A DNA stretch of 64,000 nt, taken from Amoebophrya sp. A120. Its lineage: Eukaryota; Protista; Dinoflagellata. Each line of letters begins with the position of its first letter. Position 1 is the first letter of the stretch. This document shows positions 689 to 59,300 of the stretch, one piece after another. The stretch lies in NCBI GenBank assembly GCA_905178155.1, contig CAJINV010000002.1:6056476-6120475 (forward strand). Direction: 5' to 3'. The notes beneath the pieces are model-generated. The model was not told the DNA's origin, made no database searches, and saw only the letters and a list, made by a program, of their open reading frames with translations. The position numbers and the translations under genes are program-made.

Positions 689-2702
689 TTAAGCGCCCAT
701 CTTGAGTTCCTTGAGCTTGTCGACGGTTTCTTGGAAAAATTTCTCGTCGGACTGCACGTACATCATGCCCAACAAAGCCAGGCACTGCGCGGCGTCGGTA
801 TCCTCGACAGAGTCGAAGACGGACTTTTTGATGCTGACCGGCCCGTAGGTAACCTGTGCGTCGCGGCCCCACTCGACCAAGGTCTTCGTGTCCAGGATCT
901 TCAGGAGGGCTTTACCTGTGAATAGAAGGAAGCGGTGCAATGATAGATAGGCGCTGTTGATGGAGGGGTAAAACCTTACTTCTCGTGTGCTCACGTCAGC
1001 CGTCGAAGTTGGTCTGTTCTAAATGAGAACAATTTGCACTGAATCGAGGCGACCGGCCCCTTTGCAGCTATTCGCCCAAAAAAGATGTTGACCGTAGAGA
1101 GAGTCACTTCTGAACAAAAAGAAATGAAAAACGCAATATATTAATTTCGCTTGAAAAATAAACAAAGCTCTTCACGTAATTATACCGAAGTCATCCTCCT
1201 CCGGCTTCATGCCGAGCCAGTTCATCTTTTCGGCGAGGGCCTCGAAGGGGGAGGCGGAGGCGTGCACCGCGTTGTCGCCGACATTCGGGACGGACTCCAG
1301 GCCGTATTCCTTATGGATGTGTCAGGATCGAAATCGGCACAATTGAAAAATTTGTGATGCATAAAATGTAGAGCACTGAAGGCCTGTATTGGGGAGCAGG
1401 CATCTGAGACCGATTGCGATCCTGTTTAGGGGTATGCAGCGCGCTGCCAGAGTAGCATGACAGGAGCAGTCTTCTTTGCCCAAACAGCATGACAGACTGG
1501 ATTTTGGGGCTCCCGAAATTTGTCATGCGCCACTTGGAAACTGAGGCTCCAACTGTCATCGATTTTGTGCATCACAAATTTTTCGACTTTGTCAATTTCG
1601 ATCCTGACATTCCCATATTCCTTCCAGTTCTTGTAGAACATGCCGCGCAGAGAGTCCTCCGGAGCGGTCACCGGATCGGTCGGCCCGAGGGCTTGGCCTG
1701 ATGAATTAGTATAATTTGCGTTGATATTGGGTGGCGTCTACTTCTACAACAAACTGTTGGCAGACTACATTTCTCGTACTTACTAGGTAGTCTCAAGTAT
1801 CTTTCGGGTCATGCTGGTCACTAACGTATGAAACTCCTTTAGCAATTACAGCAACACAAATTCTACTCCCTCAAACATCAAAGTGAGAAAGGTAGCCTTA
1901 AATACCACGGAATTCTTCCCAGCTGAGGTTCTTGGAGTCCCATTCGACGACGAAGTAGTACAGGGAAGCGGATTCAACGACGTAATTGCTGCGCATGCTC
2001 ATGAAAAATCCGTTCATCACGTAGATGGGCTCTTGACCTGAAATGGAATTGGAATTGGAGGCGATAACGTGGCTAAAGGGATTAGAAATTCCACTATTCA
2101 CGTGAAACAGTAGGAGCAGCTTCTCTCAGCAGTGCAAAATTGAATGTGAAGTACCGGCCTTCGGTCGAGACAAAAGGAAACGGCTACGACACAGAAGAAA
2201 AAGATGGTCGAAAGTATAGAAGAAGTACCCTACGAATACCAAACCCTGAGCACAAGCAAGCTACTCAGAAGTAAAAAATACCTTCAACCGTGTCGATGAG
2301 TCCGCAGTAGAAGCCTCCGCCGAATTTCACCAACTTGCCGGCCTTTTTCGCCTTGGCCCACTCGGTATTCAGCTGTTCGCTGTCCATGCCGAGCTTCGTG
2401 CAGGCATCCTTGGCGTTGAAGATCTTTCCCTCGGCGAGTGTGGCGTCCCAGTCCCCACCAAACTTGTCGGTGAACATCTTTTTCGGCACGTTCAGCTCGG
2501 ACGGCTTCAGGATGGTGGCTTTGGAGGCGATGGCATAGTAGTGGTTGTCGATGAGCTGCTTCTCGTCGATTTCCTTGCCGGTAATGAGGCCTTCCTTCAA
2601 AACCTTCAGGCCCTTAGCCTCCAAACCTTCCTTGACCACCACGCGCGCCTTCTCGGTGTTGGCGTGGGGCTTGACAAAAACGAAAGCGCTGTTCTTCACC
2701 AT
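689..2702 (-). CDS. Nucleoside diphosphate kinase-like protein (5 exons)
   Basis: Exons approx 2702-2282, 2037-1906, 1697-1618, 1306-1186, 915-689. N-terminal AFVFVKPHA, LGPTDPVTAPEDSLRG and active-site-like DNAVHASAS motifs. Three GT-AG introns plus one introner. Confidence 0.85.
1312..1617. mobile_element. Introner with ~55-bp imperfect TIR, DR ttcct
   Basis: tatggatgtgtcaggatcgaaat... / ...atttcgatcctgacattcccata. Removing 311 nt restores NWKEYGLESVPN. Confidence 0.9.
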
Positions 2703-3856: not shown

Positions 3857-6800
3857 TCACTTCTTCCCCTTGTGAAAGTTTATGACATCCTCCACGACCC
3901 GTTCAAAATCCCCCTTGCCGTTGAAAATCCGAGCCAAATACGCGAGTTGGTGCGGCGACTGCTTCGGCCGCTTGAACACGCGGTTTTTCACGCGCGGTTT
4001 GTCGACTTCCTGTTTGAAAATCTGCTCGAACTCGCTCCTCGAAAACCTGACGCGGTTGTTGATTCGCAGAAAATCTACCGCCTCCGCGAAGTAATCGCCG
4101 AGTTCTGGGAGCCCCGAAAGCCGAAACTGCTCGGTTTCCGTGATGTTGAAGGGGTAGGGGTGGCCCAGGATGACGCCTTTCAGCCCGCCCAGTTCCTTCC
4201 TGGATGGGTGAAGGACCAGGGAGGACAGCTGCTGTTGGCTGTTTTGTAGACTGTGTTGACTCGTCCGCTGTAGTGTTTGTTGTGGTGCAAAAGTGGAGCC
4301 ACTAGTAGTCGTCCCGCAACTCTGCGCAATGGCTTCACTCAGCCGCTGCTGGTCGTCATCCAAGTGGTCTTCGCCATGGTCGTTCCTCGGCGCTGTGAAG
4401 GAGGTTGTCGGCCGGCTGCCGTACGCACCACCCGTCTCGATCATATCGGCAATGAGCTCTGCGTGTTTTCGGGCCTCACTGCTCTGCTTCGAGGAGCCTT
4501 TGGACGTTGTTTGCCCACCTGAGGTGGATCCACCGCCCGTAGTCGTTGCGCCTACCGCTTCTGGCGTCATCTCTTCCTGAGCAGCACCTCCGCCGCCGCC
4601 CCCGAGCAGTCCGATTGCCTCCCGACAACTCGCACTTAGGAAACTGCTCAAGGCCCGGCCTTGGCGTCCGGTGACGGCGACCCCGTAGTGCGTGATTAGT
4701 CGATGGGGTAGTTGCTTGTAGAGCCGGTCGAACTGGAACACCCGTTCCGTTCTGTCCTCGCCCGTGAGCCAGGGGGCGATCAGTCCGGCGTACCTCGGGG
4801 AAAAGAGAAAATCCGCGGGGGCGAGAGGATCGTACCCAATGAAAATGTCGGTTTGCAGGGATTTTGTCACAGTTTGGAGGAGGTACTCCCGTCCGGAGAG
4901 GCTTTCCGTCTCCTCCAGCATCTGCATCGGGTCCAGAATCTCGATGTCGAAAGGTGCGACTGGTGGAAGCACGGGGACATCATGTCCTGCAGATGAGGAT
5001 AAGCCGGTCTTCGTGAACCGTTTCTGCAAATACTCCGCCACCTCTTCCGCGTTTGAAAGGTCACCGATGGTGGCGGCGAAGTCCTTGTTGTAGTTTTTAC
5101 CGCTTTGAGGACGTTGTCCTCCGGATGAAATAAGGTCTTGCTCGCCTGGTGTCGATTGTGTTCTTGACGCCGCGGCTGCGACAAGGATTGGTGAAACGGC
5201 ACGAACTGCTCGCCTGTGGTTTCGGAAAATGATAACCTTGGGCTTCCGCTTGTCGATTTTTTCAATGGCGATGACTGGCCGCTTGCCCTTCTTCTGTGCC
5301 TTTGGTAATTCAAGAGCTTCAGCAGAAGTACTAGCACCATTAATTTCTTCTCGCACGATCTCCACTGCCCGCGCGTTTCTTATCAGTTCCTTCCCGTCGA
5401 TGCCGAGTCGGAGGAACAGGTAATTCCGGAATCCGTCCAGCATCACCGGGTCCACTCCGTTCCCGGTTTTGTGCTTCAAGATCGTGTTTTGCTCGTATTT
5501 CCACACCAAATCCGGGTCAAACCACGGCCAGTGCCGCCAACCAAGGATGACGTGCTGAAAACACCTGCCCCGGGGCATTTCCCGGAAGGGCGTGACGGTG
5601 CTGGCGATGGTGGCTATCAAAGTGAAAAAAGCCCCCACCCCATAACGAAAACGGAAGATGCGCGAATTCGTGATGCTGTATTTGAGTACACAAATCGACT
5701 TGTATTGCTAGAAGGCCAAGAGACGAAGCTGCGGCCTACATTGCAGGTAATCTGTCATGCTGTTTCCCACTTCCAGTTGCCTCCTGCCATCCTGGAGCTG
5801 CAAGGCTTTCCCACGCTAGACAGCACTACAGTCCGCATCTTTTGCCTTGTAGCATCACAAAGCTGATTTGTGAGCACAAATCTGCATCACAGATTTCCGT
5901 TTTGATATGGGGAGGGGGCATTTTTCATTGTAATAGTGGCGAGGAGAACTTCTTCCAGGAAATTGGATTGGTCGCGAGGCTTTTTGTTCTTTTGCATGAT
6001 TGGAACAAATTTGCTGGCGTGAACAGCAGGGGAAGACGAGGCCGCGGCTTGTGTAGTTGCACTAGAGTCAGTACCACCAGAATTCGTATGTAGTTCTCCA
6101 CCATTGCTTCCGAACGGAGGAGACCTTATCGTGCTGTTCCTCTTTTGCATCCTTAAAACATGTCCCGGCCTTGCGTTCGTCCGCTTCTTCTTCCGCTTCG
6201 TAAAAAACTCGTCTGCGACAGTATCAAAAGGAAAAATCCCCCCTCCCCATATCGAAACGAAGTTTCTGATGCTGGATTTCCATACACAAATCAGATTTGT
6301 CTTGCAGTAGAGGAGTGCAGGCATATGGCAAGCCTCAGTCGAGAAGTTTTGGCGTAGGCACCTAGCATGACAAAGGTGTATGCTCTAAGCCAAGCAGCAT
6401 GACAAACCGCCTGCGAAATGCGGAAGGCTTTCTGGACTTGCCTTCTTGCAAGACAGACAGGATTTGAGGTCACAAATGCGCATCACAAATTTTCAGACGG
6501 ATACTTTTTCGATACGGGGTGGGGGGATTTTTCCTTTTGATAGACAGTGTGATCCATTTCGTCCACGAGATAAACATGAACTTTCGGGTGGGCGCGGAGA
6601 ATTTTCTGGATCTCGTCCTTCACTGTCTTTACTGCCACTGAAGATGGTGATGAAGCGGTATCTGCTGTAGCGGGCCGCGTTGTTCCTGTAGGTGTTCTTT
6701 CGTTTGCTGAAAAGGCCCGGCGCATTTTGTCCCCGACTTTCTGGTAGTCCGCCTTCAGAAACCCCCAGCGGGACAGCGCAACGAAGATCTGCCACGCCAC

Positions 6801-8543: not shown

Positions 8544-9129
8544 CTTGAAGAACGTACGTGTTTCTACAAATAGGCAAGCCACTGCTTCATATGTTGGTGT
8601 CCGGGGGGGAGAACAGGAGGACTGCACAGTACACGTCGCAAACAAAGAAGTTTAAAAAATACTCTACGCCCACTTGTGAAGAAACAGGGGCGAGATTGAT
8701 AATAAAGCGAGATCGAGAACAGGCCAGAACTTCGCTTCAGGTTTTGTTGCAGCCGCGACGAAAAAGGAATAGGGTGAGCCGGACTCAGGTTGCAAACACT
8801 GCATCGGTTCCACGTATTTAGATGCTGCATTCGTAAGTACTAGTTCCTTTACGTACTTAGACTATTACTCTGCCATCGGCAAAGCGTCGAACAACGTGGC
8901 TAGAGAATACGGAGCTCGCCCTGCGTCGGGGCTAACCCAATCCCAGCCCATCTCCATCTTTTGACAAATCGATGTCAGCCGCGCAACCTCACAACCCGAC
9001 CAAACATCTTGAGTAAGAACTTGCACGCCGCTGAATGCAGGAGAACGAACACCGACAGAAGGGAGGGCGCCACAACGATTCCAATGTCAGAGAAGAGAAA
9101 TCCAATTGCAGTTTCGGCCACCCATGCAT

Positions 9130-11202: not shown

Positions 11203-12681
11203 TCACCGAATCAGCTGCAAGCTTCGCCTCCTCGGTTGTCCGCCCAAGTTCCCGGAACTGGATCCCCTTCTCAACATCGTTGCCCCCGCGCTCCCTCGCC
11301 TCCCCAACAACTTCGACGACAAACTTTTCGGAATCGCTGGAACTCCCGTGATTCCAGCCCTCTCATTGCTGTTTTCGTCGCTGTCGCCCTCTCCACCTCC
11401 CGACACGATGATCCTCGGGCCGCCCCGCTCCCCCATCCGGGCCTGCAACAGGGCGTGCTGGTTCTGCAGTGGCGGAAGTTTTTGGTTCAACATCGTTTTC
11501 GCCGAAGACGCTAAATTCATCGTCTTGGACGAGCTGCTGACCTTCGAGACGCTCGCCCGACCACCAACGGAAGTGCGCTCCTCGTCGCAAATTGCCCTTA
11601 GGCTGTTGCGGTTGATGTTGAAGTCGTTGGAGCTGCCGAAGGGCAGCGCGGAGACGCGGGCGGACGGGTAAGATTTTTTCCCGGAGTTCGGTTCGTTCTT
11701 GTTAGGGGATTGGGAGTTGCGGCTCTTCCTCTTAGACGAGCCATTGTTTGTTCCCTCTACTTCGTCCTCGTCCTCATCGGTGTCGGAAGAGTCGCCATTT
11801 TCGTTCTCGGAACCATTCATGTTGTTGCCCTTGGTCCTCTTCCCTTCCGTTTTCTTCCCGCACCGCTTCATGTCCTTCCTCAAACCCTCGACGTCTTTCT
11901 GCCAAGATTTCATCTCAGTGTATGGTGCACAAAATCGCAGTTGGGTCGCGATGAAACAGAGTTCCGTCTCATTTTTCCTTGCCACGGCTCTTCATCGCTC
12001 CTACGATAGAACTCATCTAGTATGTTGACAGCTGAGGACCTACAAATGGAGATGACTACGAGGACCGAGTTGTAAAGTACTTACTAGTGACAAAGTAACT
12101 TTTCCACGCAGGACCAACAAGCACTGCAATTTTCCCTGAGATATCGACATGCGATTGTCGAGCTTTTTGCGCGTCCGGAAGACCATGCGCTTCAGCTGCT
12201 CCAGTTCGTCCACTGGTTGGATCGCCGTGTTTTGGTTCGCGGGAACCAAGGACCGACTGTAGGAATCGAACTCGTCATCCTCCTCCCGAGAATGACGATT
12301 TAGGTGGATAGCGCCGTTGTAGTTGAAGTTCAAGTATACACTGCAAAAGTAGAACTCGTTGTAATGTGCAGCTTGTAGTACTGCCAATTTTTTTCTAGAA
12401 CAAATACAAATGTGAACAAGCTCCCAATGCGGAGTCAGCTACGAGTTTAGCCTTAGCCTTAGGTCTGTTAGTATCGTATGCAAGATTGCAACTACAACAA
12501 TGAATTAGCACAACGAGGACTACGAGACCTTTGCACAGGATATTAAGGGCTGGACCGGAACGATGGCATCGTTTTCGGTCAGATCGGTGCCGGTGATGAA
12601 AGTGGAAGACGATGGGTTGTGGTGCGTGGAGCGGGACCCGCCGCCCCGGGGGTTGGTGGAGCGCGTGGCGGTGGAAGGCAT
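11203..12681 (-). CDS. Hypothetical protein with short coiled-coil region (3 exons)
   Basis: ATG at 12681 (MPSTATRSTNPRGGGS). Frame restored by removing 12330-12542 (VQPLNFNY) and 11916-12143 (NRMSKMKSW). Confidence 0.7.
11921..12143. mobile_element. Degenerate introner, DRs diverged
   Basis: Ends tatggtgcacaaaatcgcagt and (reverse complement) tatctcagggaaaattgcagt align without gaps. Element+5 = 228 nt keeps the frame. Confidence 0.65.
12335..12542. mobile_element. Introner family B, DR tcaag/ttaag
   Basis: tatacactgcaaaagta / cctttgcacaggata. Excision restores the frame. Confidence 0.8.
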
Positions 12682-14670: not shown

Positions 14671-14826
14671 TTCATCATTCCCCCAAATCGCAACGCAGTC
14701 GCTTCTTTCATATATTTGCTGCTCCTTCTCGTCCGTAGATGCGAACACTTGAAGTCGTATTGCGCATAAAATGAAAATGAAAAATATGCGTTCGGACAAA
14801 AATAAAAAGTCGCTCTCTTGTTCAAT

Positions 14827-17800
14827 CTATGTTCCGCCGTAATTCCTTGCGACCTTACTGCTGCGAACATTTGCGCTGGAAAAACGCTGAGCCCCAGAAC
14901 TACTTCTGGCCTCCATCTCACCACCAAACGACGAGCTTCTCGCTCCATCGCTTTCAAGCGTAGCAGAACTACTCTCTGTCCCACCTACCAAAGATACTAT
15001 CCTGTTTCGCGGTAGTCCTCGCTGCTCATCGTCTGTTCGTCGCACAGCGGGCCCGCCACCCCCTTTTATTTGTGGTCTACGGTTATAATTTTCAAAACGT
15101 CTAAAACTGCTTTTCGCATCCAGAAATTCCACCACCGTATTGCGTGCCTCGTCATCTTCTACTTCGTTCACAGACGCCTGCCAAACCGTTCTCCCGCTTC
15201 CCTCGGCTGTGGTCCGTAATATCTTCTTTCCTTTATTAACGTTCCTCCCCTCCAGACTCCCCGGCTTTAATCTTCCAAACTGCTCAACATCCGACATTAC
15301 GCTGCTGCTACTGGAGCGCTGGTCCACCAACACAGCTCCGGTCTCGCTACCTTCGCTGAGACTGCTGGTTGAAGAACTTCCCTCGGTTTCGTCCTCCCCC
15401 TCCTCCTCACTGGAACTAGAAGATGTTTGGTCCGCACTTTCCTTCACCTTCACCAAGTTCGTGTTGCGCTGTCGCACCATGACGGCCGCCGTCGCTGCGC
15501 ACATGCTCAGAATCGTGAAAAAAATCGCCACGGGGATGCTGCGCGCCGTCTTCGAGCAGCGCACGCTGTCGTTGGGACCGGACAGCTTCCCGTCGTCGCA
15601 CGTGACGCGCAGGCTGACCGCCGCAAACCAGTTGTTCGGGTCCTCGGCCTCGCGCGGGTACAGACACCGCAGCGAGCACGAGTCCTCATGCCGCAGAATG
15701 CTGGTTTTTTGTTTCGAAGTGTAGTTGTAGCCGCACGTCCCCGCGTGCAGCGATTCCACGTCCGCGCCGGTCCTCCGCGACAGGAATTCCCCAATGTTGC
15801 AGTCGTTCGGGAGCCTGCACCGCAGCAAATTTTGACTCCCGTCGTACTCGGGGAGATACCCCACCTTGCAGACGCAGTGGAGCCGGTTGAAGGACTCAAA
15901 CGTGTAGTGGTTCGAGCCGTACACCGAACTCCGGATCTCGGCGTTTTCGGGACACGGGGTGCACTCGTAATAGTTAGTTGATGTTCCGCTGGCAGTACTT
16001 GAGGACCTTGTCACATAGCTGCGCGGAGAAAACGGAGAGGTGGACCTCATACGGGCTGTGTTCGATGCTGTTCCTGGTATGTTGTGCCTCTGCTGTTCGA
16101 GATGTTGAAGTGTTGCCAGCGTGTTTGCATCCGTGATCTGCTTTAAGTAATGGCTGGTGGAAGCCAAGCACCGGCAGCTTCTCTCGTCTTGCCCCTTCGT
16201 CGCCCGTATGGTTTACTTATCAAAGTGCACAACTCGATGTCGGTCCCCCGTCGTTGTTGCGAGGCGTGGTGCAATCGAAGCCGTAAAAACTTCAGCAGAA
16301 CAAGCACAAGTGTTGCCTCTCCATAAAAAATCAAATCCACACACAACGCTGCTGATTGGTCCACGAGGAAGCTGCCAACTTGCCAAGACCAAAAAGGAAA
16401 ATGAGTAAATTTTCGAAAATTAGCGATACTTTCGCGCTAAGAAATGACGGGAAAAAAATGAAAAAGCTCCCTCTCGCGTTTGAGCCCGGTATCCGCAGCT
16501 TGACCAGTTGCCAAGATCAAAAAGAAAATTTGGCGCATTTTGAAAAATTTGCGATACTTTCGCGCTGCAAAATGACACGAAAAAAACGAAAAAGCTGCTT
16601 TTCGCGTTTGTGGGCCGGTTCGTACGCTGACCTGTGGCAAAAATATTGGCCGGAATAAATGCAAGGCAGTGCTGAAGAGTGAGAGGAGGCAACACGATCT
16701 GAGGGTAGCGCAGCAATATTTGCTTCTGGTGCTGCAGTTGGACTACTTTCGCATCAAAAACTACACTATGTGGGGACCTCGACCTCCACAGGAGTTGTGC
16801 ACTCTCATATCGCAGCGCAGCATCGAAGAGGTAGGGCGCGGTCGTGACGTACGGAGGCATTTCCATAGTGTGGTACCGTAGAGGGCCGTTCTGTGCCGCC
16901 CACACGTTCAAGTTCAGCCAAGTCACGGTGTTGTTCGGACACGCATAACAGAGATTCGTGTCCTCCCCGGATGTAGGTGATGCCGTGGTAGTTACTGCTA
17001 TCCCTGTAGCAGCTCTGACGGCAGCAGGAGATGGCGAGTAAAACGTGTTTTTACACACGCACGATGTGAAATATGACGCTCTCAGGCGTTCTCACACTCT
17101 CAACTGTTAAATGCAATAATACTAATGGCAAAAGTAAAAACAAAGGGGAAGAAGATTGCGCCTTTTGCATATACAGGTTTGACGCAGATTCTAATGCTAT
17201 CCATCGCGTCGAGATGCACTTGTCATGCGAAGTAGCAGCTTGCGCTTGGTAATGTAGAAGTGACAACTTTGCATCTCATGTAACTGTAGTTGAGAATGTA
17301 AAGTTTAACAATCCCATATGAAACTCGTCAAGGGGTCAGACCAGGAACCGTACGCGCACGGGAGGCAGAGGTCGACGGAGGGGGTGGAGGAGCTGTTGGC
17401 TGTTGAATCGACGACGGACGAGGAAGTTGCAGTTGCAGGAGCACCAGATCCTGCTGTCATGTTCGTTGTGTTGATATCGTGCGGTAGAAGCAGGTCTTTC
17501 GCCGAGTAGGAATAGGGATAAGCAGAACTGTTTTTCCCGTTCGTCGCTAGTACCGCTGTAGTTCCAGTCGCTGTACCTGTTGTACCTCCTCCGACAAAAG
17601 TGTAGTCTTGCGGCAACTCCGCTAGAGAATTCACGTACTCGTGATATACCCCCCTCGCCAGATTTTCTTGGATTTGCCGCAGAAACGGGTTTGTCGTGCC
17701 CGGGACTTTGTTTGGTCCAGAAGCAACACCAGCAACAACGCTACTTTTCGCCCCGTTTAAACGCACGGTGAAAGTTGTTGCCGAAGTGGAGGTATTGTTG

Positions 17801-44750: not shown

Positions 44751-47700
44751 TCACGCCGAATTCGGCGATTCGGTGTCGACGTGCTCCGGTCCCTTGGTCT
44801 TGACCTTCATGTTGTCCCCGTGTCCATCGTTCGTCGCCGTGTTCACGCCACTAGTCCCGGCGGTTTGTTTTCTATCGTGTGCAAAGACGTACCCACCCGA
44901 TACTTGCAAATGCCATGTGTAGATCTGCATGCCTAAGAAAAATGTTTCCTATGCGCAGCCCCATCAGGATGCCCATTTTCCAGTCGTGGTGTTTTGGAAC
45001 TTGACATGATGCTCTGATCAACACGATGTTGAGAGCGTCGATTTTTATCTAATGTGGCTTCACTACCCATGCACGACTACACCGCGAGCGCAAACCTGTC
45101 ATGCGCCCCAAGCAGAACGGCAGCAGATCTACTCGTCCCATCTTGACTATCCTCGTGGGGACGTTTTCACGCACGATATTCTCCAACAGCGTTGGTGCGC
45201 CGGCGGTGGCCAGACACTTCGTTTTCGGCTTGTTCCAGCGGTTCCAGCTCGTTCAGTTGCCGAAAAGTGTTCTTCTCCACCTCGTCCTCTTCTTCTTCTT
45301 CTCTCAGCAAATCGGACTGCGACGTCGTGGTGGACTTCCTCATTTTCCCCGCCATGGGATCTGGTATCGCAAACTCGTCCTCTGGCGGTAGACCACTCGG
45401 TGCCACGTCACGGTCCTCTTTGTGGCCACCACCAGCGAGATGATTGATGTCCTTCTTGTAAGAAGAATCTCGTCCACCGGAAGCTGTTGCAACTACATCA
45501 CGGCCAATGTTCTCATTGGTTCCACCTCCTGCTACCGGCGAAGAAGGTCCTGCTACTGCGTGATGCAATTGATCACCCTCTTGAGCTGGGTCCCCGTTGA
45601 CGACCATCAACTTCGTCGGAGAGATGGGAGGCGGAGTAGCGGAAGAAGATCTCGGTAGTTGTCCATGAAGGCCTTGCTCGATTTCTTCAGAATTCCGAAG
45701 GTGGTCGTGCTGCTTCTCGGTAATAGTGAGCTCGTCGTGCTGGTTGGCCACGGTCGTGCTCCCGGTGGTTCTACTGGTGGTAAAAGTAGTGGCGACTGTA
45801 CTCCTACTGGTTCCTCCGCGCCGATTGTCTGGAATGTTGGATGCTGGCACGGAAACAGGTGCACCAGCATTCAGTTTCTTCATCTGTGCGGTTGACACCG
45901 CGGTCGTGTGGTCCTTTTCTGCTCCAGGTGCAGCGGGCTCTGTTGTTCGTTTTCCCGATGGAGGGACAGCAATCGTTGATGGAGTGCCATCTTGCTCTTC
46001 TCGTTTCCGGAACTCCACCTCGCTCACCACTACCGGAGCGGTTTTTCTGTTTGCTCCATCAAGGAAGTGCTCGTCCGGCCGTGTTGCTGACGAACTACTA
46101 GACTTACTCGGCCGTCCTGGTACAGACACCCGTAGTGCGGTGTGGGTGTCCGATTGTACTGCGGTTGCAGCGGTGCGCCCTTTTTCCTCCACCTCGTTCC
46201 TGTGCTGCGGACGTGCTGCGCGGAGATCCGGATCCGGACTCGTTACCTTTGTTGTGCCATCGGTTTCAATGTTGGACGTGGGTGCGAGATCATTGCTGGC
46301 AGGTTCAGCATCTCCGTCGGAAGCAGATGTCTTGCAGTCAATCCCGCTCGCTTCCAATTCCAGCAAGGACATTCTGAATTTTCCAGTGATTTTTCCTCCC
46401 TTGCAATAAGTTGGCTTTGTCCTCGTGATTGTGCCGCCGGTCGGCGTCTTCTCTTCCCCGGATTTACTGAGCCAACCTCCCCAGCCCACCAATTTCCCTA
46501 CTGTGGTTAGTAGCGAGTCGCCCATGCCTTGTCTGGTCCAAAACGGTTCCGGAAAATCCTGGAGCAACGGCTGGCGTGTGTTCGCCAAATCCACGTCTAG
46601 CGCGTCGGGCTGCTTCTCGACCTCGAGCCCCTCGGCGCCGTCCAACGGGAACAAGTTGAATAGAAAAAACGCAAGAGACTGACAGTTGAGCTGCGGCTTA
46701 GAAGAAAACATAGAGGGAGTCTCCACGTAGTCGTTTCCGCTTTTGAATGGTCCGTAAAACGCTGCGGCAATAGCAACGAGAACGTCGGACCACGTCGCAG
46801 TTGGAACAAAGTTGCGTATTATATTGTACAGGGTATCTGCTCTTGCTCTAATGAAAATCCCGCCTTCCGGATCGAGCACTTCCTGCGCGTTGTAAGGGGT
46901 GCACCAATCCGGATACTGGAGAGCAGCTCGTAGCTCCGCGGGCGCTTGCCTTAGGGCGCGCGTGCTGGTCTCCCCTGTTTGCGATTTGTCGTCCAGATCC
47001 CGAATTGCAAGGTCGCAGCTGAACCCGCTTGCAGAGTATCCGGCATACAGGATGAGCTCATAGTCTTTTGTTGTTGCTCGTCCCCACAAACCAGTTTGCG
47101 AAGATGACGTCAGCAAAAAGGCGAATCTGATGAAGTGATGCTCTGCTGTATCCGATCCAACCTTGTTCAGTTGCAGTTGATGGGCTTGCACAGCTATATC
47201 GACGCCAGGATTCACTGTCCACGTCGTTGCCGTAGCACTAGTAGCAGGATCGGGCGCACCTTGGACGTAGGGTATCGTTGTCAGTTTAACGCTGAACGGC
47301 TCGACTACGGTCACGGCGCAGGTAGCGGCTGGCCTGAGGGTTACGGCCCCGAGACGTCCGAGGTACGGGCCGTCGGTACACGTAGTCTCTAAACAGGGGA
47401 GCAGTCGGTTAGAATCCGGGGGAAACGCTGGAGTGCTGCGCACGCACATATGTTCCATTTCATCGAGGCTTGTTCTTTGTTGAGGTGAAGATATTTTACT
47501 TCTGGTTGATGCGATGCCGTCCTTGTGCTGCTGCCGCTGGTTGATCGTCATCCGCATCTGCTTTATAGCTCGAAACCACTGTTGTTCTTCGAGATCCTTC
47601 GCCTCGGCATTCCCACCATCCGGAACAATGTGACTCTTCAAAAGGGTTACGCACATAGGAGAGATCTGAGCGAGTTTGTACTGACCCTCGACAAATCCTT

Positions 47701-49834
47701 TTCTATCACTATCGTGTTTTTCCGGGAAGATGTGGGCCAAAAACCGTTTTCGCTTCATTATGTCAGGATCCGCGGTAGGATTGACCTTGCATTCATTAGC
47801 GTCTCTGTTTTCCACTTTTCCTTTTGCTACTGTGTCCGACAACCAGCTCAAACTGTTCGCCCAGACCGTGCCGGCGTCGGGCTCGGTCACGGTACAGAGG
47901 TACAATTGCCGGGGAAGACCTGCATCTACCAAGTTGTTGTAACTAGTATATTTTTTGATCTCTTCAGGACCCGGCCCAGCATAACCACCAATGCCGCCGA
48001 CGTTCACCTTGACATGATCGGGTTCCACAGGTTCCGCTGCATGGCCACCGAAAACGGGAGCAAGGGCACCGAAAATCATCTGCAAGAAACTCGATTCCAG
48101 AGAGTCGACCAAGCCGAGCAACATCTTCCCAACCAGAGTAGTGGGAGCAGGTGGGTGAACCTGGCGGCGCAACATCGGCTATGGAAACCTCAGTTGGAAG
48201 CTATTCAGGGTAGAAGAGATTTGTCATAACACATCGAGTCAAAAAACCGTTGCCTCGTCCTGCTCTTGTCTGCGCCTTCCCATGACGAATTCGCTTACAC
48301 AATTGGTCCACCGCTCGCGTGAATCCCTGAAGCTACGTGCTGGCGTTGAGCCTGACACATTTTTCACGTTCCCAGAAGGCTGCAGCAGCAGCACTGGGTC
48401 AGAAGTAGAAAACGCCTTAGAATACAAAAGCCAAAGCCTCAAGTTGCTGCGCGCCCTCCATAAGGGAGGCTGTCACAGTCTAAGCTGTGCTCTTCTTGGA
48501 TGTACAGGCGAATAAATTTCTTCCACATTGAAAGTTTTTCTTGGTTTCTTGAGGTTGCCATACGGACGACTTCTTCTTGTAGAGTACCAGAGCGGTGGAA
48601 GACGAAGAACTAGAGGTGCTGGTGGTGGTCGTTGTAGTCGTGCTGTCGTATGCATTGCAAACACGAATATATATGCCTGGGTTCTGAAGGACGAATTACA
48701 TTTGCATGTACATTGGCGCTGTGCCATGTATGAGGAGGAGCCCCCAGTGATGGGCCCTGTTTTTGTCCTCCGACAGTAAAGCCAGAAAGAAACCACGTAC
48801 GTTAGTACTTCTCGACCTTGACCACGGGTCATGGGAAAACCTCCTTTTTAAAGCGTAAAGGCAATCGAAAGCACCCCTATAATGACGCCCGCGTATTCTT
48901 TTGAGATTCAGACCCAGCCACATCCATTTGCAATGAATACGCTGCCAGTTACTACTGCGTCCAAAGCGGGAGCTGAGATGATGAGTGCTCTTGATGAAGA
49001 TTCCGAGTCGTCCACAACTACCGGTAGAGTACTCCGTTTCTCGCCCGAAGTTGCAACGCCATGTTGTACAGGGGTTCGACTAGTACCATCGTTCCTTGCA
49101 GTAGTTCTCGAGTGATCGTTCTCCATGCTGCTGGAGTCCTTCCCTTCGTTCTCGAGTGTTGTAGTAGCTTCTGTCCTCGGATCATTCTGGTGAAGACCGG
49201 AATCATGTGTAGTTGTAGTTCCCACTGGCTGTAGTGAACCATCATTCCTTCCTCCTGCATTCTTTGCCGCAACGGCAACAGCTGCACTGGCATCAACCTC
49301 GTCCGCCTCGACGTAACTTTCGCGTTCCCGGCCGCCCCCTGGCGCGTGATTTTTCTGTTGCAGCGGTTCATGAGATGAAGTCGCAGTCGCAGTAGAACGA
49401 GTTACATGTTGATGCTCATCTACATCTGGAGCTTGATGATCGTGGTCTGCGACAGCAGAAGACGCTGACACCGAATCGTCCGCTTCTGCGCCGATCGTCC
49501 TCCTGGAAGAAGAGGAGGAAAGGCTACTGCTGCCGGACGCCGAGTCTTGGTGAATCGCACGAACCATGAGTAGCTGCGGTAAGTAGTTGTGATAGCCCAA
49601 GTCGTCGCTCATCCCTCCTCGTGAAGCGAAAAACCAGCTGGCGGTCACCGGGTACCCAGGCGTCGCCCTCCACCACAATGTTGATGAAAAGTCTGTCACT
49701 ATCAAGAAGCCGCATTGAAGAGCGAGGAGGACGATGAAGCAACAACGACTGATCGATGAAAGCGGAAGAATTATAAACAGCGTGTGCTTTTTCACCATGA
49801 AGCGATGCATCGGGAGAGGACTTTTCACCGACAT
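44751..49834 (-). CDS. Hypothetical secreted or membrane-anchored protein (4 exons)
   Basis: ORFs 48908-49915 and 45167-48175, an 81-nt exon and a terminal exon all join in frame through three introners. N-terminal hydrophobic segment. No family recognised. Confidence 0.7.
44873..45178. mobile_element. Introner, DR ttttc/ttctc
   Basis: tatcgtgtgcaaagacgtacccac / gtggggacgttttcacgcacgata. Excision gives AVGEQTAG. Confidence 0.85.
48180..48562. mobile_element. Older introner, DRs diverged
   Basis: tatggaaacctca / tgaggttgccata. Removing 388 nt gives YKKKSSVLRRQ. Confidence 0.75.
48649..48939. mobile_element. Older introner with B-like ends, DRs diverged
   Basis: tatgcattgcaaa / tttgcaatgaata. 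Removing 296 nt gives VTGSGTTTT. Confidence 0.75.
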
Positions 49835-51201: not shown

Positions 51202-54200
51202 TCAGCTGCAAGAAGATGTTGACTGCGCATTGAGCTCCTTCACATATGTGTCCAGGAACGCATCAAAATCGACCGTCCTTGTTGCCGTGTCATTTTCTCT
51301 TCTACCGTCTTCTCCTGCTCGATTCAGCGTAGAAGCTTCGTTTCCGTCCAAAAGTCGCAAAATGCTGTCCATCTTCCCATGCACCGACCCGGTTTCCATG
51401 AATTTCTTCAACCGCTCGCCGTTTTCCAAGCGTGCGAACCCACTGTTGCGCCAAACGTGACAGGCAAGCACCTTGTTCAACAGATAGCAGTAGTAGCTGC
51501 CGCCGTAGTGTACCAAGTGCTCAAATTTGGACAACGGCATGGGCGTCAGAAGGTTTCGCAGGGTTCGCGGTGCTTGCAGTGTGTTGTCGTTCTCCAATGC
51601 CTCGTCGGTCAAGACTAACTCGAATTTCGGAGCTCTACAGGAATTCTCGTCTGCTTGTTCACTTCCATTACTCGTCCTTCCCGCACCTGCACCTCCGATA
51701 ATTCTTCGCAGCGCCACGTGCTTTCCCAGATCCGGGAGGGAATCCAAAAGTCCAGCGGAAAGTTTTTCCCGCATGTCTTCCACGCTCGAAATCTCGGTGC
51801 CGCAGTCGTAAAATTTCTGGTCTACCAACGCAAAAAGCAGCTGCTGACACGCTTCGAGGAAGGGAAAAGCGGTCTCTGTACTGATCTCGGAAATGTGAAT
51901 GTCCTGTGCGTCACGCGGGATAGTAGTTTGACCAGGCTGTGGTCCACCTCCAGCACCTTCTCCCTGTCCGCTCCACTTTCGCATGACCGCTTCGTCCAGC
52001 ACAAAGTACTCAAATAGGTGGCTCGGGAACTCGACAAAGTCCACCGCGCCGCGCGTTCCCGACAGCGATTGCAGCTGCGTCTTACTCAGCAGCGAGTGCA
52101 CGCAGTGGCCCACCTCGTGGAAAAACGTGATCGCGGCGAGTCTGCTGATGTTTTTCTCCGGGATGCTGCACACGAGGGCGGTTTTCGGAATCACATACGC
52201 GGTTTTAGAAGTAGTATTCGCCGCGGCAGTCTGCTCTTCTTGATGCTGCACGACATGCGGGGAAGTTGTGCTGGCGTCCTCTTCGGACAAAGTCAAAGCT
52301 ACTTCTCTGGACCCTTGCAAGGTAAACTGTGCGGATTGGACGCGTTTCTCGGGCCTCGGTAATGCGTCGATGTACAGAATGCCGATAAGGGACGACGACC
52401 CCTCCTCGTCTGTTTCGCTTTTAGTCGCCTCCCTTGCAACTGTCGTCCCCTCGCGTCGCAGTTCGAATTTTCGCACACTGGCGTGCCACGTCTCGTTTTT
52501 GTGCGGTGTGACCTCGGTGAAGTTGACGTGCAGAAATTTCTGCAAAATCAAGTTCACGCCGGAGATCAAAGAGTCGTAGGTCGTGGTCGATGTGATGTTG
52601 TAAGCCGCCTTTTTTTTCTTGTTATCCACGGACGTTTTGCTCTTTTCCACGAAGTACGCAATGTCCCAGGGGTTTAAAGAAACGAAATCTGAATCTGAAT
52701 CTTTGATGTTCTGTGACCTTCCCTGCATTGCCATTTTCTCGGCGTATTTCATCTCCGCCAACTGCCGAAGCTCTTTCTTCAATCCCGGCAAAAGGGCAGC
52801 CCAGGCCTTCTCCAAAAACCGGGTCACGTTTGCGTTCGCGGTTGCGGCGGCGGAAGTTTGCGGACCGTGGTCATGTTCTTGGCGTGTAAGACCACCCTCT
52901 GCAGATTCATTCTTGCTGGATGAAATGGACAAGTCGGCACGAGCAGATGAAGAATTATTTTCCCCTTGTTCTCTGGAAGTCGTAGAATTACTAGCGAAGT
53001 TGAGAATCCCATCCCTCTGCGCGTACACGTTCCAGTTTTCGTAGTCCCGTAGTTGTGCCAGCCGGGTTCGCGTCAGCAGCAGTTCGACTAACGCGCGTTC
53101 GAGCTCCGGGTTCTCTTCTATGTGCACGACCTGAAAAATCTTCTCCCGGGCCTGTTCGATCGGACACGTTTTTAGCACCACATCCGCGAGGGCAGGATTC
53201 TCCCGCATGCGCTCGCCGCCCAGGTTGATTTCTCGGCCACCACCGGCATCTGAATTTTTTGCACTATTTTCTTCAGTAGTATTTCTTCCTCGGGAAAAGA
53301 AGCCGTACCTCTTCCCTGAGCCTGAAGTTGATGAATCCCGCTGCTCTAGGTAGGGTAGCAAGGCCCGGAAGTGGTTTCTGGAATCACGTCCTGGAGTCGC
53401 GCTCGTGGTTGGACGTAGTTGCTCTGCAGACGATGATGGGCTGGCGGCTGCTGCTGCTTGCTCCAGTCGCTTCTCGAGCTCCGCGTACGATATCCAGAAG
53501 TCCGACGAGTTCGAGTATGAAAATGAAAAAGGAAGAAACTACATAAGTATCTGTCCCGCACATCAAATCATCCAAAAAGGAAAAACGCACAACTTGGACT
53601 TACTTCTAATTGCTCCGAAAAACATTTTGATTTTACGGACGCAAACCATCTTGATTTTCATTTTACGGACGCATTCTTATGTAAATTATTCCCTTTTCCT
53701 AACCGCTGGCCATCCTGCGTTGCGGCACTGCTGTTACCGCTCTGCTGGTTTTGATTTGAGATTCCGCCGGCCAAACAGAAGGAAAGCTCCTGCTCCGTTT
53801 GCTGCAGCGCGAGACACTCCTCCTTTTTCTCCGGCGGCATGCCCACGCCCTCGTTGCCCATAGATTCGACCATGTGCCGAAAAACCGTGGCTTCCTCCAG
53901 TGACAGCGCCTCGTCGGAAGGACACGGCGGAGTGGAAGATGTCGGTCGCTCTGAAAGATCAAGATGACCAGCACCAGAATCACACTTGATGATGTCGTTC
54001 CTTTTCAACAAACGTAACTCGTGGTGCTTTTTCAAGATTTCGAACACCTCCTCATCCAAATTCACAACGGACATGTACTGCGCGATCAGGTTCACCGCGT
54101 CGTTCGCTGCGTCGTGCCACTTGCTGTCCGGCGGCGTTACATTCCGCGTCAGCTCCGCCGCCCTATGAGAGTGCATAAGTTCCGCTCCCCCTCCACCTCA

Positions 54201-55625
54201 TTTGGATGTTGGCATCCACAGCAACACAAGCTCTGGCTGGGCAAAGATCAACTCAAGATGCAGCTTGCCTCTGCATGACAAACTGACTACCGATTCTCGT
54301 GGTGTTTGGTATTTTGCATGACAAATGAGGATCAAGGGGGGCTGTGCACTCTCATACGCGTCCGCGATGTTGCACAAACTCGCTGACACGTTGTCCAGAG
54401 TGCGCAGAAGCGTTTTGGTACTCATCATCGGAGGGAGAGGCTGGCTGGCAGAAGATGAAGAGAGCGGAGGAGAATTCCTCTGATCTTGCTCTTGGCCCTG
54501 CCCCCGCGCTTGAATTCTATCCTCTTCTGTCGCTAAGTTTTGCTCTTGTAAAAATTCCGACGATGAAGCACGTTCAAACCAGGCCTGGTTCACGCGTTTC
54601 AATTCCTTCATTTCTTCATCCGCGAAATCCACCACTGCCTGCGCGAGCTTCGGGAAATCTGCCGGCCGCTGCAGCTCGGGAATATCGAGAAAATTGTTGT
54701 AGTTTCTGGTGTGAAGATGATACGGAGTCGTGAAGGTCTTGGCCTTGCTGTTGCTGTGCGCATGAGAACGAAGACCCGAGTGGCTTGCGATCGTCCCGTG
54801 CCTGTCCGCACTGTGCTGTTGCCCTCCGTGTTGACCCGAAGTGGAAGCGAAAAGACTGCGACCACCGGCGACCTCACTAAGCGGCAGACCCGTTTTGGGG
54901 CAAAGGCGAGAAGATCTTGTGCTACTTTCAGGCGCAGTTTCGTCGTTGTTCCCTCTGTTGTTAATTTCAGCCGCCCTTGAGGACGTCGTCCCCAGATTCG
55001 TAGACGTACTGCCGGAAAAAAAGTCCGTCACCCGGGCACGAATGTTACTCGCTATGGAAGCAGAGGAAGAAGAGGATGAGGACGATGAAGAGAAGGGTTA
55101 TCCAAAGCGCAAATGCATACATGTCCGAGTCTACTCCTGAAAGCGAATGCAAACATGTGCTGTAAATGATCCAGCACAATGCGGTTCGCTCTACCGAGGG
55201 CACCATGCCAAAATATCCAAGCACGTCTCTTTCGCAGGTATGTGTGTCATCTCAAGAGAACAGCGCATGCTGTAAGGATATCAGACCCAGATATGCACCA
55301 GCTTTACATTGCATAACGACCGTGGCACAACAACAGCTGCGCTACAGGTGGCAGCACGGACACCGACGCCCATCGACGTTCCCGCGACGCGGAACTGACG
55401 CCCAGAAGTGGTCGCGAAATTTTTTCGATGGCAAGAAACTGGAATAAAGGGGGACTTGGCTTGCGAGTCACCCGGCGTGAGGGCGTAATTACTGTCTCTC
55501 CTTCTTATCCTTCCAACGGCCGCAACCGCATTTTCCCCATCAAAAATTCGCTGGGCTGTTCGCACGCGGGCCGCGCGGTGCAGCAAAGCCGCGGACTTCC
55601 GAACGAGAAAGACTTCGCCACGCAT
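51202..55625 (-). CDS. MIPEP: Mitochondrial intermediate peptidase (peptidase M3A), 4 exons
   Basis: FFHEVGHCVHSLLSKT..SGTRGAVDFVEFPSHLFEYF, HLVHYGGSYYCYL and N-terminal LDNVSASLCNIADAAEL. Arg-rich transit-peptide-like first exon. Confidence 0.9.
53516..53701. mobile_element. Degenerate introner (right end reads TAG rather than TAT on the minus strand)
   Basis: tatgaaaatgaaaaagg versus (reverse complement) taggaaaagggaataa. Removing 191 nt links the frames (GQRYSSDFW). Confidence 0.6.
54164..54356. mobile_element. Introner family C, DR cgccc/cgcgt
   Basis: tatgagagtgca / tgcactctcata. Removing 198 nt gives NIADAAELTRN. Confidence 0.9.
55099..55315. mobile_element. Degenerate introner, DRs diverged
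   Basis: tatccaaag..tgcata versus (reverse complement) tatgcaatg..tgcata. Removing 222 nt gives PRSFSSSS. Confidence 0.65.
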
Positions 55626-56354: not shown

Positions 56355-59300
56355 TCACAGATATTTTTCGGTCGCCCGAAAGAACGACTCGCGAGTGATT
56401 ACACCAGCGATCTGAACGCCACGAGCATCGCTTGCGCTCCGCACGGGTGCTCTTCTGGTGACAAACAATACCTCCAGCGACAGCATGAGGAACAAGAAAT
56501 GAACCCGCGCCAAGCTCGTCTGTTCGTCAATAAGTAAGGGCGTCGGGTCGAGCAAATTGTCCTGTGGATGGTAAAGACCGAGCAGCGGTGAATCCGAGGT
56601 AGCATTGTCTTTGCTTGCCTCAAAAAAGTCTCCGCTTTTTTCGCCCCTGCCAACAGATCTTCCGTGCTGATTGGAAGAAGGTCCGCTTGATGTGAGGACA
56701 CCTGGTTCATCTGTAGAAATTGCAGTCGTCCCCGCAGCCAACAACATAGAGCTGGTTTTACTGACGGTCCTGCTAGCCCCACAACTCTCGCTGGTCACTA
56801 AACTTATCGAAAGAGGCGACGCAGTGGAAGCACTGCCGCTTGATACCGCGCCAGTCGTACTGGAAGACGATTTCTGTCGAACGGCACCAGGGTCGTGCAG
56901 CTCCTCCAGTAGCACACTGCTCTCAGCGATTTCCGCCACTTCACCTTCTACATCGCCGCACATAGCGTCATCTCTTCCACCCTCCATGTGAGCGACGAAC
57001 ACGGGCAGGGGCAGACACGCGGCCTGGAAACGCACAGCGGTTTCGATTTCGTTCATTTCTTGTCGTGCCAAATCATTCTGTTGTATTGCGATTTCTTCTT
57101 CAGAAGCCATATTGCTCTGTCCCGCCAACAAGTCCTCCTCAGTAGAGCCTCGCAATTGGAGCAGATCGTCGTCCGATGTGGTGTAGTATTTGTCGCTAGA
57201 ATTCATCCCTGCGGAGGTGGAGGACTGAGCAGCTGCATCAATAGAGGACATGAATCCCTGCTGCTGATCACCGCCCTCCTGTTCATCCGCGATGTCGAAG
57301 TACGCGTAGCCCGCCTCCCGTGCGGCCTTCAGTGCTCTCAATAGTTCCGACCGGGAAAACGACTCGCGCAGAAAGCAGCCGGCTGGGATCTCGCGACACA
57401 GATCCCCCGCGGTCAGTCGCTGGTAGCTCTGCTGGTTGCCCTGGAGGTAGGGGAAAAACCGGATCTTCTTCAACTGGATGATCACGTCAAAAATGCTCAT
57501 CAGCCGATTGTTTCCTGCTGAGGTTTCGGACTGGTGTTCTTCATGATCTTCCTCCTCGGCCTGCAGCCGTTGTTCCGTCGAGCGGGAAAGCATCAAACTA
57601 GAAGGAAAAACAGCTTCGTTGCTGGAAAAAAATCCTCCTCTCGACGATGTTGAAGACGACGCCGTGGTCCTTCTCCGCTTTTTACAACGAAACTCAACGG
57701 AGAGCAAGTAGCCGCAGACGAAGTAGCTCATGCAGACCGCGAGGAGCATGGGCAGCAAGTGGTTGATTTGGCCCGTCAGCTCGGACACAATGAGGACTGT
57801 GGACAGCATCTGCGTCACGCCCGCGGTCATGCAGGTGGCGCCCACCACCGCGTACAAGGCGGGAACCTCGAAGTCGGATGGAGGAGGAGGGGATCGGGTG
57901 AAGGAATCTTCAGGTGAGGATGTTTTTCTTGGTTGTTTCACCTCGTTGCTCGTAGCGGGAACTGGATCTTCACCAGTGTCTTGAGTGCCGAACCAGCCCT
58001 GGGCTGCAGCATCCACCGACTCGAAGTAGCTCTGCAAGGTTTTTTGAAAACTGCCATCAGTGCCATCATTCTCCTGATTTTGGCTGCCAGTCGTCGATAG
58101 AGCCGCGCCGTCTTCGTGATCGTGGCCGGAAGGGTTGTTGCTGTTAGTTTCGCCGAATAAGGCCGACGGCCCTAGGTTCAGACTCTGGGGCAGCGCCCAG
58201 AAGAAGTCGCTGTCCTCTTCACTTGTCTTCGGGAAACGAAACACCAGACCGAAAAGACGGCCGAGCGACGCACCGAGGACAAAAACCGGTGTGAAGACCC
58301 CGGCGGGTATGGGGCAAGCCGCGGCAATCGGGAAGAGGATCGATTTTTGAAAAATCAGTGAGGTGAGGACCTTATACTGCGGAAAAGTAGTATGTATGGT
58401 GTGTGTGCGGGTGCGCAACATACAGAATGCACGGAGCAGAAGGCACGATGACAAATCTTTCGTTGCGCATCGCTGTCATGCTTCCTTGGGGCCATCCACA
58501 TAAATTGCGCTTAAACATCACCAGTATTAATTTCTTTTCCGCCGGATAGATCCGCAGGTCAGAGGAGGCGCTGACGCTTGTTGGGCTCGCCGAGCTACGA
58601 CTCGAAATTTTCGCTGATTTCGCTTCGTTTCCGCCTGCTCCTGTTTCTCCCGGCGCCGCACCCCCAGGAGCAATGTCCCCACTTACTTGACCCGGCAACA
58701 GCTTCTCACTCAGACTTTTCTTGGAAAAGAGTGCGTTTATTAGACTTTTATCCTGGTGCGCGATTGCGGGCTCCAAGACGCACAAAGAGGACGAGAAGAG
58801 GGATATGAGCATCAGTGCGAGAAAGATCTTTCCATGCAGCGCGTTTTTTGCTGACAGCAGCCCACGTGATTCTGGTGGTGCTCCGCCCATGCTCGCCGTC
58901 GACGTAGTTTGTTGCTGATTATTTGTCAGCAGTCGGGCGGAAAAGCCAAAGCAAAACTTCGTGAATTTCACGACCAAGGCGCCAACAACGCCATTGCACA
59001 CGCCCAGCAACACAAACCAACCGGTTTCCTCCAAAGGGGGTTCGCCCAAGTCCGTCAGTTCGAACAGCCGGGTTACGTGCAGGTACCCACAGACGCGCAA
59101 AGCGAAAAGACAGCTGACGGAACAGAAGAAAGCCCGCCAAATGTTCTTTATGAAAAAGAACGTCGTCGCCATCTCCATCGCAAACAGGGTCGCTCCAAGC
59201 GGCGCACCAAAGGTAGCGCAAACACCGGCAGCAGTGGCGGCCGTCATCAGGCGGACTTGATTTTGGCTCAATGAACGGGCGAGCTTTTCCACAGTGGAAG

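What the first reader, a model, noticed from the sequence alone, without database searches (positions are those of the whole stretch)
1312..58548. About 30 transposon-like introns follow one rule: TAT...ATA plus exactly 5 nt, with no GT-AG
Seen: nearly every break in the coding sequences is a 109-592 bp element with terminal inverted repeats, TAT/ATA ends and a 5-bp flanking duplication. Removing element+5 nt restores the frame at every listed junction, including inside conserved arginase, MIP, NDK and CLC sequence. TIR sequences differ between at least six families, but the terminal trinucleotides and the 5-nt offset do not. Established: non-canonical introners with inverted and direct repeats are reported in Amoebophrya, and I know of no resolved excision mechanism. 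Inference: splice sites are set by a terminal RNA stem plus a fixed 5-nt spacer rather than by U1/U2-type sequence signals, which points to an uncharacterised splicing pathway.
Basis: partly seen in the sequence, partly recalled or inferred. Interest (0 to 1): 0.92.

Follow-up and report, generated by a model that had tools for sequence, protein, structure and literature searches.

The report
Transposon introns with a fixed cut
In the marine parasite Amoebophrya A120, small transposons already described in 2021 are removed from messenger RNA, and wherever the cut can be located it falls one base before their TAT start and four bases after their ATA end, which is likely a relaxed code read by the cell's own spliceosome.

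Summary
The window is Amoebophrya sp. A120. I count 30 TIR elements of 109-592 bp; 28 have TAT...ATA ends, and only 15 keep a perfect 5-bp duplication. RNA contigs skip exactly element+5 at 10 of 10 element joints seen, and a DNA run keeps the one element it fully spans. Farhat 2021 already reports the TAT start, 3-5 bp repeats and hairpins, but left the borders unknown. New here: where the two flank copies differ, the cut is always compatible with 1 nt before TAT and 4 nt after ATA (exact at 3 sites, narrowed at 5). TAT then sits at donor +2 to +4. All 3 ordinary introns in the window begin GTAT, one element is GT-AG in the same register, and five excised elements have little predicted end pairing. 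No excision chemistry was tested. Already known system; the rule is new as far as 8 searches show.

The parts
1312..1617 (-). TAT...ATA element, perfect 5-bp repeat; intron 1308-1618 in the 1+4 register (AT-GA; a GA-AG register also fits)
   Evidence: RNA joint skips 311 nt in 3 of 4 runs
5615..5935 (-). element, perfect repeat (CT-CA)
   Evidence: RNA joint skips 326 nt, 4 of 4 runs
6222..6542 (-). element, perfect repeat (CT-GT)
   Evidence: RNA joint skips 326 nt, 4 of 4 runs
11921..12143 (-). old element, repeat decayed (1 of 5 alike), weak TIR; intron 11917-12144, AT-CT; cut exactly 1+4
   Evidence: RNA joint with zero ambiguity, 4 of 4 runs; TAT:ATA pairing predicted 0.00
12335..12542 (-). 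element, one mismatch in the repeat; cut 0+5 or 1+4
   Evidence: RNA joint, 4 of 4 runs
16218..16809 (-). longest element, repeat decayed; cut 0+5 or 1+4
   Evidence: RNA joint in 2 of 4 runs; protein P0121
17072..17318 (-). element, perfect repeat, little predicted end pairing (0.04)
   Evidence: RNA joint skips 252 nt in 2 of 4 runs
19318..19467 (-). element, perfect repeat
   Evidence: protein P0122 needs +5
19525..19756 (-). element with a changed 3' end (ATT), perfect repeat
   Evidence: protein P0122 needs +5
19830..20180 (-). old element, TIR almost gone; intron GT-AA; cut exactly 1+4
   Evidence: protein P0122 allows only 1+4
20857..21092 (-). element, perfect repeat
   Evidence: sequence and frame
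21157..21438 (-). element, one mismatch
   Evidence: sequence and frame
23245..23506 (-). element of the commonest family
   Evidence: sequence and frame
24152..24331 (-). element whose intron (24148-24332) is GT-AG; cut exactly 1+4
   Evidence: RNA contig X3 record 10, no mismatches
26430..26681 (-). element; 89% alike to 28727 in the opposite orientation
26754..26903 (-). element
27288..27546 (-). element
28727..28982 (-). element
29449..29557 (-). shortest element, one mismatch
29727..29990 (-). element, one mismatch
30354..30611 (-). element
35407..35578 (-). element inside the arginase domain (GT-AT)
   Evidence: skipped (+5) by RNA contigs X1, X3; kept in DNA contig X6 record 19; Pfam positions 177/180 flank it
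36483..36629 (-). element in the arginase gene (CT-AA)
   Evidence: skipped (+5) by RNA contigs X1, X3
40758..40953 (-). old element, weak TIR; boundaries set by me
   Evidence: frame only
44873..45178 (-). element, one mismatch
48649..48939 (-). element, repeat decayed
   Evidence: no protein found
53516..53701 (-). element with a changed 5' end (TAG), repeat decayed; cut 1+4 or 2+3
   Evidence: protein P0001
54164..54356 (-). element inside conserved peptidase M3 sequence
   Evidence: protein P0001 needs +5; relatives are colinear across it
55099..55315 (-). element, repeat decayed
   Evidence: protein P0001 needs +5
58373..58548 (-). element in the CLC gene, two mismatches
916..1185 (-). 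ordinary GT-AG intron, starts GTAT (comparison)
   Evidence: RNA joint
1698..1905 (-). ordinary GT-AG intron, starts GTAT, CTAAT with A at -9 (comparison)
   Evidence: RNA joint
2038..2281 (-). ordinary GT-AG intron, starts GTAT (comparison)
   Evidence: RNA joint

Best explanation
These are MITE-like transposon insertions with 5-bp target duplications that are removed from the mRNA as N-TAT...ATA-NNNN wherever the cut can be located, likely by the host's own U2-type spliceosome, which would read TAT as donor positions +2 to +4 and would place the 3' cut four bases after ATA without needing G at +1 or AG. Shown: elements in DNA, removal of element+5 in RNA, the 1+4 register at the informative sites, opposite orientations within a family. 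Inferred: the transposase (unknown, making 5-bp duplications) fixes the TAT ends; the inverted repeat supplies both signals in either orientation; the cut keeps four bases of the upstream copy and one of the downstream copy, so the original site is restored. Speculative: the A at -7 is the branch nucleotide and the 3' site is counted from it; the stem helps young copies but is dispensable.
For: Register: exact 1+4 at 11921 (RNA, 4 runs), 24152 (RNA) and 19830 (protein); 0+5 or 1+4 at 12335 and 16218 (RNA); 1+4 or 2+3 at 53516; 0-3 upstream bases at 54164 and 55099. Leaving out the site that suggested the idea, chance under a random register is about 5e-4. All 3 ordinary introns start GTAT. 24148-24332 is GT-AG in the same register, and Farhat reports repeat structure in 15% of A120 canonical introns. 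In Farhat Table S4 all nine top A120 non-canonical types have T at +2 and six have GT or AG at one end; all nine A25 types start TT and A25 repeats start TTA, whereas hybrids are rare in Euglena. Excised elements 11921, 12335, 17072, 19830, 24152 have predicted end pairing 0.04-0.27; G-U 28 vs A-C 26. 83 of 89 spliceosomal proteins and U2, U4, U5, U6 are present; snRNP27 was not detected, and donor +4 U pairs with U6 ACAGA and tracks SNRNP27K/METTL16 in fungi. Fritillaria splices TIR-derived non-GT/AG introns with its U2 spliceosome.
Against: No chemistry was tested. +1, -1 and -2 take all four bases, and insertion sites show no enrichment of G at +1 (21 of 66, p=0.68) and only a marginal one of AG (9 of 66, p=0.049; strand calls there are noisy). 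TAT is also the transposon end, so the match to GTAT may be coincidence, and it rests on 3 ordinary introns. At 45 unselected ends TAT is no more conserved than the rest of the TIR. 22 of 29 elements do have predicted end pairing above 0.5, folding predictions are rough, and two of the three exact sites have a GT donor. 53516 is removed with TAG and 19525 with ATT. U1 was not found. In Euglena a similar architecture needs the stem and yields circles. A25 would have a purine at +4 although it also lacks snRNP27. RNA comes from contigs of 2 samples of 1 study.
Confidence: 0.55

Rival explanations
1. A separate, spliceosome-independent (or dedicated) machine recognises the paired TAT:ATA stem and cuts 1 nt before and 4 nt after it, as proposed for Euglena non-conventional introns.
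For: Terminal dinucleotides are free; 22 of 29 elements fold end to end; U1 not found; in Euglena N3-CAG...CTG-N5 introns the motif, the spacer and base-pairing are required in knock-ins and the introns leave as circles.
Against: Fully non-canonical elements 11921 (AT-CT), 17072 and 12335 are excised with little predicted stem; no G-U excess; the register coincides with GT-AG at 24148-24332 and with the host's GTAT donor; half-canonical types are common in Table S4.
Confidence: 0.3
2. The spliceosome does the chemistry, but the stem rather than the trinucleotide sequence positions both sites.
For: Removal persists with TAG at 53516 and ATT at 19525, both of which keep predicted end pairing of about 0.7.
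Against: Old elements with decayed TIRs keep TAT and ATA at the right offsets and are cut exactly (11921, 19830).
Confidence: 0.1
3. The elements are ordinary or near-canonical introns using GT/GC/GA-AG sites slid within or near the duplication.
For: A G[TCA]-AG register exists at 4 of 30; published annotation of large A120 families lists AG at about a quarter to a third of 3' ends.
Against: Only 2 of 10 RNA element joints allow such a register; 5 of 66 in other loci; 11921 is AT-CT with no ambiguity.
Confidence: 0.02
4. The elements are excised from DNA in part of the population, and the 'spliced' RNA comes from empty alleles.
For: Only one element (35407) is fully spanned by a listed DNA contig, and 792 joints were not shown.
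Against: DNA contig X6 record 19 keeps 35407-35578 while RNA contigs skip it; the same RNA contigs also skip ordinary introns; old copies with decayed repeats are removed in a 1+4 mix of both flanks, which simple DNA excision would not be expected to give.
Confidence: 0.03

Closest known systems
Amoebophrya A120 introner elements (Farhat et al. 2021, PMC7789003; Gozashti et al. 2025, PMC12130899)
   Same: Same organism and same elements: inverted repeats starting TAT, 3-5 nt direct repeats (5 bp in the Fig. S19 legend), hairpins, non-canonical ends, about 29,850 copies.
   Different: The paper calls the splice sites variable and the border unknown; the 22 of 58 A120 rows I read in the 2025 dataset give duplication lengths 2-5 and three different mechanisms. 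A single 5-bp duplication and a fixed 1+4 cut with T at +2 are not stated in the text I saw.
Euglena non-conventional introns (PMC12501133; review PMC11282704)
   Same: Inverted trinucleotide at fixed distances from free intron ends, direct repeats, likely MITE origin, 'slidable' junction problem.
   Different: N3-CAG...CTG-N5 with a purine starting the next exon, stem shown essential, circles, few hybrids. Here N1-TAT...ATA-N4, no purine rule (11 of 30 next exons start with a pyrimidine), weak-stem copies still cut, half-canonical ends common.
Fritillaria borealis non-GT/AG introns (PMC13326754, bioRxiv 2025.08.15.670264; Henriet 2019 not read)
   Same: TIR transposon-derived introns with non-canonical ends on a genomic scale.
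   Different: There the ends are mostly AG-AC/AG-AT, U1 is conserved and U2-spliceosome dependence was shown; here +1 and the last four bases are free, U1 was not found and nothing is tested.
Classical introners of Aureococcus, Micromonas and Polarella (via PMC7789003, PMC11282704)
   Same: Non-autonomous TIR transposons that become introns and restore the coding sequence using the duplication.
   Different: They carry or co-opt GT/GC and AG; these need neither.

Membership tests
Amoebophrya A120 introner elements | Located in A120 genes | tested here: met
   P0001, named A120 by its source, is 100% identical to the window's peptidase exons
Amoebophrya A120 introner elements | Inverted repeat starting TAT | tested here: met
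   29 of 30 at each end
Amoebophrya A120 introner elements | 3-5 nt direct repeat at the borders | tested here: met
   5 bp, at most one mismatch in 20 of 30; exact in 71 of 82 in other loci
Amoebophrya A120 introner elements | Repeated in the genome and removed from transcripts | tested here: met
   16 of 29 elements have relatives over 70% of their length in the fetched loci; RNA joints
MITE / TIR DNA transposon | TIRs, fixed-length duplication, no coding capacity, both orientations | tested here: met
   (26430 vs 28727: 89% in opposite orientation)
MITE / TIR DNA transposon | Cognate autonomous element or transposase | tested here: inconclusive
   No coding long copy in the window or 153 loci; no genome was held
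U2-type spliceosomal intron | GT/GC...AG ends | tested here: not met
   1 of 30 in the 1+4 register
U2-type spliceosomal intron | Donor +2 T and U6-read positions like the host's | tested here: met
   T at +2 in 30 of 30, TAT in 29 of 30; host donors GTAT 3 of 3; partly circular
U2-type spliceosomal intron | Lariat with 2'-5' branch; dependence on U2/U6 | not testable with these tools
   needs lariat sequencing or inhibition
Euglena-type non-conventional intron | CAG/CTG at +4/-8 with 3- and 5-nt spacers | tested here: not met
   TAT at +2, ATA at -7; spacers 1 and 4
Euglena-type non-conventional intron | Terminal base-pairing required | tested here: inconclusive
   5 of 16 evidenced junctions have weak predicted pairing; prediction only
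Euglena-type non-conventional intron | Excised as full-length circle | not testable with these tools
   only contigs were available for this strain

The most novel reading that the evidence does not exclude
A120 has evolved a dedicated, spliceosome-independent splicing pathway that removes tens of thousands of transposons by an N-TAT...ATA-N4 code, convergent with Euglena's CAG...CTG code but in an alveolate and with different spacers.
Probability: 0.25. Interest if true: 0.9.

Novelty: already known. Interest (0 to 1): 0.55.

Why it matters
The elements are known; how they are spliced has been open since 2021, partly because the duplication hides the cut. Old copies with mismatched flanks reveal it: 1 nt before TAT, 4 nt after ATA. 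If this holds genome-wide, A120's 'highly variable' splice motifs collapse into one rule, tens of thousands of annotated borders can be corrected, and the mechanism becomes testable with a clear prediction (T at +2, candidate branch A at -7, lariat or circle). Either outcome is notable: a spliceosome that needs neither G+1 nor AG, or a second independent origin of a Euglena-like pathway. It would also explain why these transposons are nearly harmless in exons in either orientation.

Tried and rejected
No whole genome was held. Rfam found nothing in the window. Including the DNA run swamped the joint table. Protein searches for the 2,800-aa gene and the gene at 48.5-50 kb found nothing. The TIR pattern was absent from viral contigs. 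A Markov coding model called frames for only 10 of 253 elements (9 consistent with +5); the looser test gave 86 of 174 open frames for +5 against 49, 35, 50, 34 for +3, +4, +6, +7, so its background is high. Extra conservation of TAT at unselected ends was not seen. No autonomous copy: two pairs near 1 kb had no ORF above 151 aa. The internal GCATNACA motif was rejected as a required splicing signal: it is absent in exact form from 10 of 30 elements, including excised ones. Earlier scan notes held nothing. A bulge-helix-bulge (tRNA-endonuclease) model was considered from recall and set aside because flanks are not complementary to the intron; not computed.
Full report
Identity. A search with the last exon of the peptidase gene returned a 100% identical 1,270-aa protein that its source names Amoebophrya sp. 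A120; its four parts map to the window. All long genes lie on the minus strand, which is therefore the sense strand below. Pfam confirms arginase, peptidase M3 and CLC; the first exon of the supposed NDK gene had no hit. No whole genome was held.

The observation. A scan for terminal inverted repeats flanked by an exact k-bp repeat, with no TAT requirement, gave 11 TAT/ATA pairs among 19 hits at k=5 and none among the commonest pairs at other k; at a looser cut-off 13 of 54, against 0 in 19 of 20 shuffles and 1 in one. Relaxed scans, RNA joints and protein mapping gave 30 elements of 109-592 bp. TAT is present in 29 and ATA in 29. The flank copies are identical in 15 and differ at 1, 2, 3, 4 places in 5, 4, 4, 2. 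With all 30 removed plus 5 nt, frames run through, for example 2,818 codons across nine elements; +5 beats +4 and +6 at 26 of 30 and the other four are near gene ends. In 153 loci fetched with one family's TIR (about a quarter of the collection scanned, flanks for 80), 144 of 153 unbiased k=5 hits are TAT/ATA, and 71 of 82 elements of that family have an exact 5-bp duplication, against 8, 2, 1 and 0 for 2, 3, 4 and 6-9 bp. Family members lie in both orientations to the transcript (26430 and 28727 are 89% alike in opposite orientation; 5 vs 3 in the loci).

RNA. Runs X1-X4 are contigs from 2 samples of 1 study, marked as RNA by guess; they skip three ordinary GT-AG introns and have no depth in several intergenic bins, so they behave as RNA. 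Thirteen joints were seen: 3 ordinary introns and 10 elements, all 10 skipping element+5. DNA run X6 carries 35407-35578 intact in a contig with no differences. Only 2 of the 10 admit any GT/GC/GA-AG reading. The other 20 elements have no RNA joint here; 6 of them are supported by database proteins, which derive from gene models or assemblies and are weaker evidence.

Where the cut falls. A perfect duplication hides the cut, but 15 elements have differing flanks, and 8 of these have RNA or protein evidence. 24148-24332 is skipped with no ambiguity and reads G-TAT...ATA-ACAG. 11917-12144 is skipped in 4 of 4 runs with no ambiguity and reads A-TAT...ATA-CACT. Protein P0122 allows only 1+4 at 19830. 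12335 and 16218 allow 0+5 or 1+4; 53516 allows 1+4 or 2+3; 54164 and 55099 allow 0-3 upstream bases. Only 1+4 fits all eight. Without the site that prompted the idea, a random register would fit with probability about 5e-4. In this register all 30 have T at +2, while +1 (A 11, G 8, C 7, T 4) and the last four bases are free.

Mechanism. TAT occupies +2 to +4. All three ordinary introns start GTAT, and each has an A followed by T at -9, -8 or -7, where the elements have it at -7; this branch reading is speculation. Farhat's Table S4 lists nine predominant A120 types, all with T at +2 and six with GT or AG at one end, and nine A25 types, all starting TT, while A25 repeats start TTA: both strains would place T at +2 and A at +3. 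The spliceosome is nearly complete, U1 was not found and snRNP27 was not detected; in fungi donor +4 U pairs with U6 ACAGA and tracks METTL16 and SNRNP27K. On the stem: 22 of 29 elements fold end to end above 0.5, but 11921, 12335, 17072, 19830 and 24152 give 0.04-0.27 at 37 C and no more at 19 C, and are removed; TIR mismatches show 28 G-U and 26 A-C. Against my reading: no enrichment of G at +1 (21 of 66) and only marginal AG (9 of 66, p=0.049) at insertion sites; TAT no better conserved than the rest of the TIR at 45 unselected ends, 4 of which deviate; two elements are removed with a changed end; TAT is also the transposon terminus; and in Euglena a similar code needs its stem and gives circles. 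I put the relaxed spliceosome at 0.55, a separate stem-guided pathway at 0.3 and a stem-positioned spliceosome at 0.1. Nothing here shows the chemistry.

What is known. PMC7789003 (abstract, passages, sections 11 and 12, supplement parts 2 and 3 and three supplement searches) describes these elements, the TAT start, 3-5 nt repeats, a 5-bp example and hairpins, and says the border is unknown. Its figures (Fig. 3, S19-S25) are not held and may show more than the text. PMC12130899 (passages; supplement file 8 part 1 and 22 of 58 A120 rows; files 13-14 not searched) gives duplication lengths of 2-5 and mixed mechanisms. PMC11282704 (passages, section 6), PMC11453091 (passages) and PMC12005148 (passages; a strain with canonical introns and U1) add no register. 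PMC12501133 (passages, sections 10 and 12) is the closest experimental precedent. PMC13326754 (passages, section 4) and its preprint (passages) cover Fritillaria. PMC10581693, PMC12621601 and bioRxiv 2022.06.08.495308 were seen as passages. Henriet 2019, Roy 2023 and Guminska 2021 were not read and are cited through these papers. Eight searches found no statement of a fixed 1+4 cut; subscription journals are mostly outside the library.

Verdict. The fixed 1+4 register from eight informative junctions is a real refinement that makes the open question testable. Interest 0.55.

Noticed in passing
inside 20 of 30 elements, e.g. window 30354-30611: A motif GCAT[GCT]ACA (either orientation) occurs 55 times in 7,343 nt of elements against 4 times in the other 56,657 nt, across unrelated families; a candidate transposase-binding site. 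I did not find it in the paper text I read.
   Followed up: partly
window 24148-24332: The two flank differences sit exactly at intron +1 (G) and -1 (G), giving GT-AG; possibly an element converted to a canonical intron by selection. One case only.
   Followed up: partly
window 23475-23506 and 26430-26461: Raw RNA reads of run X8, which do not cover the genes at 92% identity, carry this family's TIR with other flanks, so a different strain seems to share the family although it was described as strain-specific.
   Followed up: no
window 9100-10900 and 12900-14700: Two very GC-rich stretches with little or no RNA contig cover and no similarity to each other; nature unknown.
   Followed up: partly
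window 34827-34866: A 40-nt piece in the arginase 3' region matches many reads of X8 and other contigs with two differences and unrelated flanks; probably a chance match to an abundant RNA.
   Followed up: no
window 13143-13210 and 44383-44410: Isolated internal motifs next to TAT outside called genes; possible element remnants.
   Followed up: no
window 23100-33500: One predicted gene of about 2,800 codons carries nine elements; no Pfam hit in two exons and no full-length database protein was found.
   Followed up: partly
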